64,000 nucleotides of DNA from Candidatus Borrarchaeum weybense (GTDB lineage Archaea; Asgardarchaeota; Sifarchaeia; Borrarchaeales; Borrarchaeaceae). Shown here piece by piece: positions 62,424 to 64,000 of this stretch (within the stretch, counting starts at the first letter, position 1; the number at the start of each line of letters is the position of its first letter). The notes under the pieces are model-generated. The model was given only the letters and a program-made list of their open reading frames with translations, did not search any database and was not told where the DNA came from. The stretch is taken from positions 452,938 through 516,937 of the forward strand of contig JAHQJS010000006.1 of the NCBI GenBank assembly GCA_019057385.1, read 5' to 3'. The position numbers and the translations under genes are program-made.

Positions 62424-63815
62424 CTAAACCCAATCTCCTGAATGAATCTTGTTTGGGAGATAGAAATTAGTCATAAATTGAATATCTTCATGTGCAAGGG
62501 CTTGAATCTCAGCTTTCACACCAGTTGAAAGCATAAGCTCAATTTCTTCTACCCATCTTGGTCTTGCTTGTACAAATTCTTCTTTAATCATGTCTTCTCC
62601 ACGTTTTTTGTCCCTAGGTGACATTGGGATACGAGCATTGTTTGGGATCCCATACTCATCGAGATCGCTTGGAAGAAGTCCCAACCATTTAATATCTGAA
62701 ACCGCCATCTCATTAGTCTCAAAAGATAATGCTTTTGATCCAATCGTATAAACTCGTAGAATGTCTAAGCCATACGGATCAGCATCCATCAACCCAAGAA
62801 CTGGTAAGTTGAGTTCTTTTCGTATTAGTTTAACAAACATTCTGGTTGCCATATCAGGTTGTCCCTTGCCTGTTATAATAATGCATGGCACATAGTCATA
62901 GAATCTGTCTTCAGCTAACCTCATAAACGCTGCTTCTTTCTCAACAACTAATATAAACTCCGCATCTGAATCCAAATTTGTTATTTGGTCGATCATGGGA
63001 GTAATTGCTTTTCCACCCACTCCCATTTTAGTGCAATCAATTAAATCTCCGCTTTCTTTGAAATTAATTCGACCAACTACTATACCCTTTGTTGACGCAA
63101 CAACATTCAACGACGCCCTCGTCACACCTAGCATAACGGCTAAATCTTCTATTAGATTGTCGCTTATTGATTGATCACGGAAAATATTCACATCGCGATA
63201 AAAAACGTCCCTTTTGGTTGTATGTAGATTCTTATTTAATTGTTCGTCAATTAACTTCATTAGGCGTGCCATTTGAGCCACAGAAAGCACTGATGACAGG
63301 CTTCTATATGCGCGAATCATCTGTTGATTTCCAAGGAGAACCATTTTTGTGTTATCATCGTATCCGATATTTTCACTTGCTCGAGATGGTATTTTAAAGG
63401 CTGCATTCTTTGGATCTTGCACAGTTTGAACAACAAAATCAGCCGCAGTTTCAATCAAACGCCTACGTGTCAATTCTGCAGGTTTATTTTCTACGATTAT
63501 GACACCGTAAGGAAAATCGGTTTCTGAGGGGAGATAAAGCTCTTTCTTTATCTGCTTAATATTTTTTAAATTTACTTTAAGTTTGATTTCTATTTCTGCA
63601 TTCTTTGGAAATTTTAATTCTGCTGGAGTTTTTTTCTCATCTAAAACTTTCTTATTGAAAAGAAAAACAAAGCGGTTTTTTTTGGGAATACTAAACTCCT
63701 CGTACAGTTTCTCTTTGATTGTGGCAAGAGGACTTTTAGAGTCAATTTTTAGAGTCGTGGTTGTATCTTTTATATCCAATTTATTTTTAATAAGCAATGA
63801 TATCATATTTGACAT
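62424..63815 (-). CDS. top6A: DNA topoisomerase VI subunit A (Spo11 family) with N-terminal ubiquitin/SUMO-like domain
   Basis: TTKRDVFY (catalytic Tyr), VVEKEA, TGKGQPD, DADPYG, KAEIQAL; extra N-terminal beta-grasp-like 80 aa. Confidence 0.92.
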   Translation of the reverse strand: MSNMISLLIKNKLDIKDTTTTLKIDSKSPLATIKEKLYEEFSIPKKNRFVFLFNKKVLDEKKTPAELKFPKNAEIEIKLKVNLKNIKQIKKELYLPSETDFPYGVIIVENKPAELTRRRLIETAADFVVQTVQDPKNAAFKIPSRASENIGYDDNTKMVLLGNQQMIRAYRSLSSVLSVAQMARLMKLIDEQLNKNLHTTKRDVFYRDVNIFRDQSISDNLIEDLAVMLGVTRASLNVVASTKGIVVGRINFKESGDLIDCTKMGVGGKAITPMIDQITNLDSDAEFILVVEKEAAFMRLAEDRFYDYVPCIIITGKGQPDMATRMFVKLIRKELNLPVLGLMDADPYGLDILRVYTIGSKALSFETNEMAVSDIKWLGLLPSDLDEYGIPNNARIPMSPRDKKRGEDMIKEEFVQARPRWVEEIELMLSTGVKAEIQALAHEDIQFMTNFYLPNKIHSGDWV

Positions 63816-63887
63816 TTTGCTTTCACGATTCCTAAAAATTATCCTTTAAAACTATCATATATTTGTATTTGATCAGGTAACAAGAGG

Positions 63888-64000
63888 TTAACGGGAAGTT
63901 TTTCTCTTATTTTTGGTTTTCTTGGTAGTTGTTTTTTTACCAGTTGTTTTCTTGGTAGTTGTTTTTTTACCAGTTGTTTTCTTGGTAGTTGTTTTTTTAC
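63888..64000 (-). CDS. 3' end of upstream gene (possibly top6B) with Lys/Thr-rich repeat tail
   Basis: (KKTTTKKTTG)2-KKTTTKKTKNKRKTSR-stop; identity inferred from position only. Confidence 0.5.
   Translation of the reverse strand, partial: KKTTTKKTTGKKTTTKKTTGKKTTTKKTKNKRKTSR
63916..64000. repeat. 30-bp perfect tandem repeat (at least 2.8 copies, runs off window)
   Basis: Unit CAGTTGTTTTCTTGGTAGTTGTTTTTTTAC. Confidence 0.9.

What the first reader, a model, noticed from the sequence alone, without database searches (positions are those of the whole stretch)
63573..63815. SUMO/ubiquitin-like domain fused to TopoVI-A (Spo11 homolog)
Seen: about 80 extra N-terminal residues, TLKIDSKSPLATIKEKLYEEFSIPKKNRFVFLFNKKVLDEKKTPAELKFPKNAEIEIKL. 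They match the beta-grasp pattern of ubiquitin (K.KI...GIP....LIF.GK.L.D..T) and especially SUMO/Rad60-SLD (KI....PL, F.F, TP..L, D/E.I.V). There is no C-terminal GG, so it would be an integral domain. Established: typical archaeal Top6A lacks such a domain, and eukaryotic topoisomerases are regulated by SUMO/ubiquitin. Inference: a genetically hard-wired UBL tag, for example for Cdc48/proteasome handling of trapped complexes.
Basis: partly seen in the sequence, partly recalled or inferred. Interest (0 to 1): 0.75.

Follow-up and report, generated by a model that had tools for sequence, protein, structure and literature searches.

The report
Built-in ubiquitin-fold domain on Asgard Top6A
The DNA-cutting subunit of one of this Asgard archaeon's two topoisomerase VI enzymes really does begin with a built-in, non-detachable ubiquitin-like domain; the feature arose once, always travels with a gigantic partner subunit, is in no paper I could find, and its function is untested.

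Summary
Window 62424-63815 (- strand) encodes a 463-aa Top6A with intact catalytic residues (Y206, E292, D344/D346). Residues 1-80 are a ubiquitin-fold domain. They score above Pfam's cut-offs for Rad60-SLD and ubiquitin, the family profile hits ubiquitin in the PDB, and the AlphaFold2 model matches SUMO, ubiquitin and ISG15 at TM 0.75-0.83. There is no GG, so the domain is integral.

It is not peculiar to this genome. About 66 of 301 Asgard genomes, in 7 of 30 families, carry it. On a tree built without the domain's columns these proteins form one clade (100/100). No non-UBL Asgard or eukaryotic Top6A retrieved has it.

In 9 of 9 loci with enough upstream sequence, the gene follows a giant Top6B (2,280-4,300 aa) carrying a long helix-hairpin-helix array.

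New here: the same genome also has an ordinary Top6B (557 aa) and Top6A (387 aa, no UBL) pair 10 kb away.

A specific SUMO kinship is not resolved. The Cdc48/proteasome idea has no support. Modelling weakly suggests the domain is docked on the A core, not a floppy tag.

This scan already found the same feature in at least 7 other genomes.

The parts
63576..63815 (-). Ubiquitin-fold (beta-grasp) domain, residues 1-80 of Top6A; integral, no GG
   Evidence: Pfam Rad60-SLD and ubiquitin above cut-off. Profile hits ubiquitin in the PDB. AF2 strands 4-11, 18-25, 49-53, 56-58, 72-79 and helix 30-40. Foldseek top hits SUMO/Ub/ISG15 at TMq 0.75-0.83.
63480..63575 (-). Basic junction (consensus V-R-R-x-V-x-L; here I-K-L-K-V-N-L), short helix 84-90 and linker, residues 81-112
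   Evidence: Conservation table. The helix aligns with the N-terminus of UBL-less Asgard and eukaryotic Top6A. Brinkmeier 2022 (PMC9665070) describes an extra N-terminal helix in Asgard and eukaryal TopoVIA. Linker pLDDT is 67-75.
62427..63479 (-). Top6A catalytic core, residues 113-463: first helix 113-133 (aligns with the N-terminal end of M. mazei Top6A), winged-helix/5Y-CAP with Tyr206 (63198-63200), Toprim with E292 and D344/D346
   Evidence: Pfam TP6A_N 179-238 and Toprim 287-457. PDB hits 2zbk, 1d3y, 2q2e. Y206, E292, D344 and D346 are invariant in 73 homologues.
62424..62426 (-). Stop codon of Top6A
63816..63887 (-). 72-nt spacer between giant top6B and UBL-top6A, with a TATA-like TTTTAAA about 31-37 nt before the ATG
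   Evidence: Read directly from the sequence. In other genomes the spacer is 0-120 nt.
63888..64000 (-). 3' end of the giant Top6B gene (at least 2,289 codons; starts outside the window at G000 C6:523803): Lys/Thr-rich tail encoded by a 30-nt tandem repeat
   Evidence: Frame 63888-63998. The frame continues in L003 2435-9304. Pfam Topo-VIb_trans plus HhH families. Tandem repeat seen in the congener.

Best explanation
SHOWN: residues 1-80 of this catalytically intact Top6A are an integral ubiquitin-fold domain that cannot be conjugated. It defines one clade of Asgard Top6A (names attached to hits: Hodarchaeales, Heimdallarchaeaceae, Kariarchaeaceae). In that clade the adjacent B subunit is a 2,280-4,300-aa protein: a Top6B module followed by a long helix-hairpin-helix (HhH) array and a basic tail. 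The domain joins, through a 3-4-residue basic junction, directly onto the N-terminal helix that Asgard and eukaryotic Top6A share.

INFERRED (about 40% likely): the UBL is a fixed structural and adaptor module of this enlarged holoenzyme. It packs against the Top6A core next to the A-B junction, which is where the C-terminal HhH array of the giant B subunit emerges. There it offers a mostly positively charged surface that helps hold DNA or the HhH array in place. On this reading it is not a degradation or extraction tag. In this genome it may also help the UBL-A subunit pair with the giant B rather than with the ordinary B encoded 10 kb away.
For: Fold and family.

Integral: GG near the domain's end in 1 of 116 members. 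Beta5 runs straight into the conserved V-R-R-x-V-x-L junction and helix.

Single origin: on a tree of core columns only, the 22 UBL rows form one clade at 100/100. The eukaryotic clade lies elsewhere. None of 111 UBL-less Asgard or eukaryotic Top6A matches the UBL profile even at E<=10.

Distribution: full-length matches (profile 1-468, frames 460-490 aa, E 1e-208 to 1e-234) occur in families f1, f5, f14, f21, f24, f25 and f29. In the other 23 families the matches listed in detail start near profile position 60-90, in frames of about 395-425 aa.

Coupling to giant B: in 9 of 9 loci with upstream sequence the gene lies 0-120 nt after a 2,282-4,304-aa Top6B-HhH ORF. Among the listed Top6B matches, frames over 2,200 aa occur only in those seven families.

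Within-genome control: short B (557 aa) sits beside short A (387 aa, no UBL), and giant B sits beside UBL-A.

Fixed rather than floppy: UBL pLDDT rises from 69 alone to 85-93 in the full-length model, pTM 0.83. The complex test (B 379-720 + A 85-463 + UBL as partner) gave WEAK support. The score was 0.57 against a best control of 0.00, and it fell to 0.00 when the A core was replaced. The mark was reached by 58 of 80 solved complexes and 2 of 110 mismatched pairs. At 0.60 or under it was reached by only 7 of those 80 and by both mismatches that passed. The runs agree in at least 95% of contacts and the partner's pLDDT is at least 84.

Charge: the UBL's median net charge is +5 (90% of members positive), against -8 for the core.

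Parallel case: in family f7 a second Top6A copy carries a basic tail and 4-5 HhH repeats at the same N-terminal position. This end of Top6A is therefore a site where DNA-binding accessories have been added.
Against: No experiment bears on function.

The UBL surface is poorly conserved: mean column identity is 28% against 52% for the whole protein, and mostly core hydrophobics are kept. A conserved partner interface would be expected to show more.

The docking result is only 'weak support'. The UBL and the A core are consecutive parts of one chain, so their proximity is partly trivial.

A positive charge is common in Lys-rich proteins of AT-rich genomes.

dN/dS of the UBL (about 0.25, from 17 differences) is higher than that of the core (0.05).

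Co-inheritance with giant B could be shared ancestry without physical coupling.
Confidence: 0.45

Rival explanations
1. First reader's idea. The UBL is a hard-wired handle recognised by Cdc48 or the proteasome (as Rad23/Dsk2-type N-terminal UBLs are in eukaryotes), so that Top6A covalently trapped on DNA can be extracted and degraded.
For: The fold is ubiquitin-like. 13 of 116 homologues give weak hits to UN_NPL4, a p97-binding UBL family (best E 9.5e-5). The genome encodes ubiquitin-like proteins and four E2-like genes, so a ubiquitin system exists. Eukaryotic topoisomerase adducts are handled through ubiquitin, SUMO and p97 (established knowledge).
Against: No receptor was identified. The beta3-beta4 loop has no FPR signature (read from the sequence; the signature is from my own knowledge). 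The residue aligned to ubiquitin V70 is charged in most members. The models place the domain confidently and the docking depends on the A core. The UBL-less Top6A of the same genome and of most Asgard lineages faces the same trapping problem without a UBL.
Confidence: 0.15
2. SUMO-like recruitment platform. Like the SUMO-like domains of Rad60/NIP45, the domain binds SIM-type motifs of repair or chromatin factors and brings them to the enzyme.
For: Rad60-SLD is the best Pfam hit for this protein. The top structural matches are SUMO1 and SUMO2.
Against: Ubiquitin scores nearly the same. Only 7 of 116 homologues hit Rad60-SLD. Foldseek E-values for SUMO, ubiquitin and ISG15 are within one order of magnitude. 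No SIM partner is known.
Confidence: 0.1
3. Pairing determinant only. The UBL exists to make UBL-A assemble with the giant B and not with a co-resident ordinary B.
For: This genome and its genus carry both pairs side by side, with strict short-short and giant-UBL adjacency.
Against: In f5, f14 and f21 nearly every genome shows a single Top6A and a single Top6B match, yet they keep the UBL. Paralogue discrimination therefore cannot be its general role.
Confidence: 0.1
4. Little or no specific function: a neutral or merely stabilising N-terminal add-on, kept because it is tightly joined to helix alpha1.
For: Fast-evolving surface (28% mean identity). dN/dS is higher than in the core.
Against: The domain is retained in about 66 genomes of 7 families, with intact hydrophobic core positions and no decay.
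Confidence: 0.15
5. Annotation artefact: translation starts downstream and the UBL is not made.
For: No RNA or protein evidence covers the 5' end; the one metatranscriptome contig lies at 62610-62860.
Against: The next in-frame ATG is codon 158, inside the core. The N-terminal region is conserved as protein in 119 of 121 homologues. It folds as a domain. It shows fewer non-synonymous than synonymous changes per site.
Confidence: 0.02

Closest known systems
Canonical archaeal topoisomerase VI subunit A (S. shibatae 2zbk_A, M. jannaschii 1d3y_A, M. mazei 2q2e_A/9o0g_A)
   Same: Winged-helix/5Y-CAP with the catalytic Tyr, Toprim with E and DxD, and a gene next to Top6B. phmmer E 1e-35 to 1e-52 over residues 113-463.
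   Different: The solved proteins are 369-389 aa and start at the equivalent of residue about 100-113. They have no UBL and no extra helix.
Asgard/eukaryal-type TopoVIA with an additional N-terminal helix (Brinkmeier et al. 2022, PMC9665070); multiple Asgard Top6A/Top6B pairs (PMC12680538, 2025)
   Same: The helix after the UBL (residues about 81-93) aligns with the N-terminus of UBL-less Asgard and eukaryotic Top6A. Several Top6A/B pairs per Asgard genome are reported.
   Different: Neither main text contains the word ubiquitin. The UBL and the HhH array of the B subunit are not described there. Their supplements were not readable here.
Integral (type-2) ubiquitin-like domains: N-terminal UBLs of Rad23/Dsk2/parkin, SUMO-like domains of Rad60/NIP45
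   Same: Beta-grasp fold inside a larger protein, no GG, N-terminal position.
   Different: Those are shuttle, ligase or repair adaptors. Here the host is a type IIB topoisomerase catalytic subunit. No receptor is known, and the classical L8-I44-V70 patch is only partly kept.
Methanopyrus kandleri topoisomerase V (topoisomerase domain followed by tandem (HhH)2 domains; from my own knowledge)
   Same: A topoisomerase extended by a long HhH repeat array, as in the giant Top6B partner.
   Different: Different topoisomerase type (IC versus IIB). Topo V has no UBL.

Membership tests
Top6A/Spo11 (type IIB topoisomerase A subunit) | Winged-helix/5Y-CAP domain with the catalytic tyrosine | tested here: met
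   Pfam TP6A_N 78.9 bits. Y206 is invariant in 73 homologues and corresponds to M. mazei Y106 by the alignment offset of 100 (Y106 named in PMC11302465).
Top6A/Spo11 (type IIB topoisomerase A subunit) | Toprim domain with metal-binding E and DxD | tested here: met
   Pfam TOP6A-Spo11_Toprim 210.7 bits. E292, D344 and D346 are invariant.
Top6A/Spo11 (type IIB topoisomerase A subunit) | Cognate Top6B (GHKL + H2TH + transducer) partner | tested here: met
   The adjacent upstream gene has Topo-VIb_trans at 183.5 bits and a weaker HATPase_c match (24.0 bits, below the 26.4 cut-off). It is 34% identical to the ordinary Top6B over 536 residues. Physical assembly was not tested.
Ubiquitin-like beta-grasp superfamily | b-b-a-b-b-(turn)-b fold | tested here: met
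   AF2 secondary-structure order. Foldseek matches to SUMO, Ub and ISG15 at TMq 0.75-0.83, prob 1.0.
Ubiquitin-like beta-grasp superfamily | Sequence match to curated ubiquitin-family models | tested here: met
   PF00240 27.4 bits (cut-off 25.4) and PF11976 29.8 bits (cut-off 23.8). The family profile hits ubiquitin at about 1e-6.
Conjugatable ubiquitin-like modifiers (ubiquitin, SUMO, NEDD8, SAMP) | C-terminal Gly-Gly exposed or exposable by processing | tested here: not met
   No GG after beta5; the chain continues into Top6A. GG is present near the domain's end in 1 of 116 members.
SUMO / Rad60-SLD subfamily specifically | Closer to SUMO-type than to other UBL models, consistently across the family | tested here: inconclusive
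   Rad60-SLD is slightly ahead of ubiquitin in this protein but is hit by only 7 of 116 homologues, against 17 for ubiquitin. Structural E-values are similar for SUMO, Ub and ISG15.
UBX / p97(Cdc48)-binding UBLs | Conserved R...FPR motif in the beta3-beta4 loop (feature recalled from my own knowledge) | tested here: not met
   The loop after beta3 (residues 54-58) is N-K-K-V-L here and G/R/K-S-K-K in the family. There is no F-P-R. Weak UN_NPL4 hits occur in 13 of 116 members.

The most novel reading that the evidence does not exclude
The UBL-Top6A and giant HhH-Top6B pair is a distinct chromosome-scale form of topoisomerase VI in the Heimdall-group Asgard archaea. Its built-in ubiquitin-fold domain couples the enzyme to the Asgard ubiquitin/Cdc48-proteasome machinery. 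That would make it a prokaryotic forerunner of the ubiquitin/SUMO-dependent handling of topoisomerase-DNA adducts in eukaryotes.
Probability: 0.12. Interest if true: 0.85.

Novelty: new variant of a known kind. Interest (0 to 1): 0.6.

Why it matters
Topo VI is the archaeal ancestor of plant Topo VI and of meiotic Spo11. The names attached to the UBL-clade proteins are Hodarchaeales, Heimdallarchaeaceae and Kariarchaeaceae, groups that published work places nearest to eukaryotes (PMC12680538). In the three large families of the clade (f5, f14, f21) nearly every genome shows one Top6A and one Top6B match, so there this elaborated enzyme appears to be the only Topo VI.

It shows that a ubiquitin fold was already used as a built-in module of a core DNA enzyme in archaea. 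It also shows that Topo VI grew large DNA-binding appendages there. Eukaryotic Top6A keeps the neighbouring helix but not the UBL.

This genome is a convenient test bed. It encodes the ordinary and the elaborated enzyme side by side, so subunit swaps and domain deletions can be compared within one organism's proteins.

Tried and rejected
1. Bacterial promoter/terminator scan: not meaningful for an archaeon. I read the spacer by eye instead.

2. RNA evidence for the 5' end: one metatranscriptome contig (run X20) covers only 62610-62860, so it says nothing about the UBL region or the start.

3. Exhaustive profile search with the UBL alignment: the list is swamped by polyubiquitins, whose many repeats add up. 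It confirms ubiquitin kinship but shows no other host architecture.

4. ESM Atlas look-alikes: scores of 0.78-0.83 to small archaeal ubiquitin-like proteins, below the level at which the tool says a hit is more than a lead.

5. Supplements of PMC12680538 and PMC9665070 are not held as text. I cannot exclude that a supplementary figure shows the domain.

6. BLAST of the ordinary Top6B against the first-fetched 'giants' of f5 and f14 found nothing, and Pfam saw only HhH families in them. The fetched stretch had cut off their N-termini. Refetching showed continuous 3,468-4,304-aa frames beginning with a Top6B module.

7. Contacts of the UBL in the models could not be read. Coordinates are not exposed, and the complex tool withholds the interface for a weak pass.

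8. Placing the UBL clade relative to eukaryotes: the core-only tree leaves the deep branches open and unrooted, and the two outgroup rows are not together. I make no sister-group claim.

9. L023 and L025 (f24, f29) have too little upstream sequence to see the neighbouring gene.

Full report
THE OBSERVATION

The ORF 62424-63815 on the - strand encodes 463 residues. The finding's coordinates (63573-63815) are residues 1-81. Pfam finds the two Top6A domains, TP6A_N at 179-238 and Toprim at 287-457. At the N-terminus it finds Rad60-SLD (29.8 bits, cut-off 23.8) and ubiquitin (27.4 bits, cut-off 25.4).

Against solved structures the core aligns with S. shibatae, M. jannaschii and M. mazei Top6A. 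Query residue 113 corresponds to M. mazei residue 13, so about 100 residues are extra. Polyubiquitin already appears at E about 1e-3.

I aligned the N-termini of 116 homologues (A1). This profile hits single ubiquitin chains in the PDB at about 1e-6. It hits polyubiquitins at 1e-42 in a 1.84-billion-protein library.

AlphaFold2 on residues 1-84 gives strands 4-11, 18-25, 49-53, 56-58 and 72-79 and helix 30-40 (pLDDT 69). Foldseek's best PDB matches are SUMO2, SUMO1, ubiquitin variants and ISG15 (TMq 0.75-0.83, rmsd 1.3-2.6 A, probability 1.0).

IS IT TRANSLATED, AND IS IT INTEGRAL?

- The next in-frame ATG is codon 158, inside the core.
- The region is conserved as protein: 119 of 121 first-search homologues match the UBL profile at E below 1e-3.
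- Against the orthologue of a congener, dN/dS is about 0.25 for the UBL (8 synonymous and 9 non-synonymous differences). For the core it is 0.05.
- Contigs from independent sediment and marsh metagenomes carry the region with no indel inside the ORF.
- The 72-nt spacer upstream holds a TATA-like TTTTAAA about 31-37 nt before the ATG.
- No GG follows beta5. Only 1 of 116 members has GG near the domain's end.
- Beta5 runs into a conserved basic junction (consensus V-R-R-x-V-x-L) and a short helix.

That helix aligns with the very N-terminus of UBL-less Asgard and eukaryotic Top6A. It fits the 'additional N-terminal helix' of Asgard and eukaryal TopoVIA described by Brinkmeier et al. (PMC9665070).

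The catalytic residues Y206, E292, D344 and D346 are invariant in 73 homologues. The host protein is an intact enzyme subunit.

DISTRIBUTION

The 120 best database hits are nearly all 460-496 aa. Where named, they are called Hodarchaeales, Heimdallarchaeaceae, Kariarchaeaceae or simply Promethearchaeota.

A full-length profile run over 301 Asgard genomes gives a bimodal picture. Families f1 (the window's own), f5, f14, f21, f24, f25 and f29 have matches over profile positions 1-468 in open frames of 460-490 aa (E 1e-208 to 1e-234). That is about 66 genomes. In the other 23 families the best E-values are 1e-159 or weaker. The matches listed in detail begin near profile position 60-90, in frames of about 395-425 aa.

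A search with the genome's second Top6A brought in UBL-less Asgard proteins (named Baldr-, Njord-, Odin- and Asgardarchaeia) and eukaryotic Top6A (diatoms, oomycete and others). None of these 111 matches the UBL profile even at E<=10.

On an IQ-TREE tree built only from core columns, the 22 UBL-bearing rows form one clade with 100/100 support. The eukaryotic rows form a separate 100/100 clade among the UBL-less rows. The deep branches are open and the tree is effectively unrooted. I conclude a single origin of the fusion, but I make no claim about sisterhood to eukaryotes.

CONTEXT: A GIANT PARTNER AND A SECOND ORDINARY ENZYME

The window ends 185 nt upstream of the gene, so I fetched the rest of the contig. 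Directly upstream, ending at window 63888, lies a frame of at least 2,289 codons. Its N-terminus is a Top6B module: the transducer domain scores 183.5 bits, and it is 34% identical to the ordinary Top6B over 536 residues. About 1,000 residues of HhH-type repeats follow (Pfam RAD51D_N, HHH_5, RNA_pol_A_CTD). Then comes a Lys/Glu-rich region and a Lys/Thr tail encoded by a 30-nt tandem repeat.

Further upstream lie a 968-aa HEAT-repeat protein and then an ordinary operon. The operon encodes Top6B (557 aa) and Top6A (387 aa, 46% identical to the UBL form from its residue 77 onward, no UBL). Within one genome, then, short B sits with short A and giant B sits with UBL-A. Congeners have the same layout.

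In eight further loci from families f1, f5, f14, f21 and f29, the UBL-Top6A gene follows a Top6B-HhH frame by 0-120 nt. The complete frames are 2,282-4,304 aa; the f29 frame is cut by its contig end at about 1,089 aa.

A transducer-domain search over the same 301 genomes shows Top6B frames above 2,200 aa only in the seven UBL families, among the 150 matches listed. Elsewhere frames are 415-680 aa. The exceptions are mid-sized forms of about 1,100-1,350 aa in f27 and f28, and the f27 forms sit beside UBL-less A subunits.

About 78 database clusters of such giants exist. NCBI labels them simply 'DNA topoisomerase VI subunit B'.

In family f7 a second Top6A copy of 776-845 aa carries a basic tail and 4-5 HhH repeats on its own N-terminus. 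The A-B junction has therefore been a place for adding DNA-binding accessories at least twice.

MECHANISM

What is shown is the anatomy and the co-inheritance. Function is inference.

In the full-length model the UBL reaches pLDDT 85-93 and the overall pTM is 0.83. The linker 91-110 is less certain, at 67-75.

I ran a three-chain complex test: Top6B 379-720, Top6A 85-463, and the UBL as the scored partner. The verdict was WEAK support.
- The score was 0.57 against a best control of 0.00.
- The score fell to 0.00 when the A core was replaced by an unrelated protein.
- The mark was reached by 58 of 80 solved complexes and 2 of 110 mismatched pairs. At 0.60 or under it was reached by only 7 of those 80 and by both mismatches that passed.
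- The runs agree in at least 95% of contacts, and the partner's pLDDT is at least 84.
- The two pieces are consecutive parts of one chain, so this mainly says that the UBL packs on its own protein and does not dangle.

The domain is mostly basic (median net charge +5) while the core is acidic (-8). Its hydrophobic core positions are conserved but its surface is not.

I therefore favour, at about 40%, a fixed adaptor or structural role at the A-B junction of the enlarged enzyme, possibly touching DNA or the HhH array.

The genome has ubiquitin-like and E2 genes, and some homologues weakly resemble the NPL4 UBL. Nothing tested here supports it, and the UBX-type FPR loop is absent.

A specifically SUMO-like nature is not resolved.

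LITERATURE AND EARLIER NOTES

Full-text searches combining Topo VI or Top6A terms with ubiquitin-like, beta-grasp, helix-hairpin-helix and Asgard found no description. The two most relevant papers do not contain the word ubiquitin in their main text. Their supplements could not be read.

This scan has already reported the same feature in at least seven other genomes, with follow-up conclusions that match mine. Notes on the neighbouring window of this genome had seen the giant Top6B. They had also seen an operon with 'two B subunits but one A'. The second A subunit is the gene studied here.

VERDICT

This is a real, apparently undescribed domain architecture: a new variant of a well-known enzyme. 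It is clade-defining and strictly linked to a giant B subunit, and its function is unknown. The added value of this genome is that the ordinary and elaborated enzymes lie side by side.

Noticed in passing
window 63888-64000 and beyond (L003 2435-9304, - strand; G000 C6:516825-523803): Giant Top6B of at least 2,289 aa. It has a Top6B module (Topo-VIb_trans 183.5 bits; 34% identical to the ordinary Top6B over 536 aa), then roughly 18 or more HhH-type repeats, a Lys/Glu-rich region and a KKTTT-type tail encoded by a 30-nt tandem repeat. Homologues in other families reach 4,304 aa. It is reminiscent of the (HhH)2 array of topoisomerase V.
   Followed up: partly
L003 9330-15106 (- strand), just outside the window: An ordinary Top6B (557 aa) and Top6A (387 aa) operon and a 968-aa HEAT-repeat protein lie directly upstream of the giant-B/UBL-A pair. 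That makes two Topo VI enzymes within 15 kb. The layout is conserved in the genus (G041, G050).
   Followed up: partly
L020 1122-3452 (+) and L021 159-2693 (-), family f7 genomes: A second Top6A copy of 776-845 aa carries a Lys-rich tail and 4-5 HhH repeats fused to the N-terminus of the A subunit, directly after a normal-sized Top6B gene. This is an independent way of adding HhH modules at the A-B junction.
   Followed up: partly
one search list: e.g. G231:C84:118433-118903, G261:C1:38996-39466 (family f27); G239:C93 (f28): Mid-sized Top6B frames of about 1,100-1,350 aa. In f27 they lie next to UBL-less Top6A genes. They may be an intermediate stage of B-subunit enlargement.
   Followed up: no
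L004 17743-19857 (-) and L007 53-2272 (+), family f21: In L007 the ORF directly upstream of the giant top6B starts with a motif that looks like gyrase A/type IIA A-subunit (GNFGS.DG..AA..RYTE). An ORF of similar size (704 aa) occupies the same position in L004 but its family was not checked.
   Followed up: no
L022 926-2191 (+), genome G009 (same class as the window's genome): Its single Top6A has a Lys-rich N-terminal tail before the shared helix, but no UBL. Basic N-terminal add-ons are thus common in Asgard Top6A.
   Followed up: no
G000 C4:124688-127150 and C4:696353-700268: Two clusters with ubiquitin-family and E2 (UQ_con) matches. The genome has a eukaryote-like ubiquitin system.
   Followed up: no
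L003 about 2435-2537 (just past the window's end): About 100 bases of the giant top6B tail repeat read as N (withheld or masked) in the genome copy, which creates a false stop. The true end is given by window frame 63888-63998 and by the congener (L011).
   Followed up: yes
window 62610-62860: One 251-nt contig of a wetland metatranscriptome (run X20) matches the 3' half of the Top6A gene at 99%. This is a hint of expression, but contigs cannot show strand or transcript ends.
   Followed up: partly
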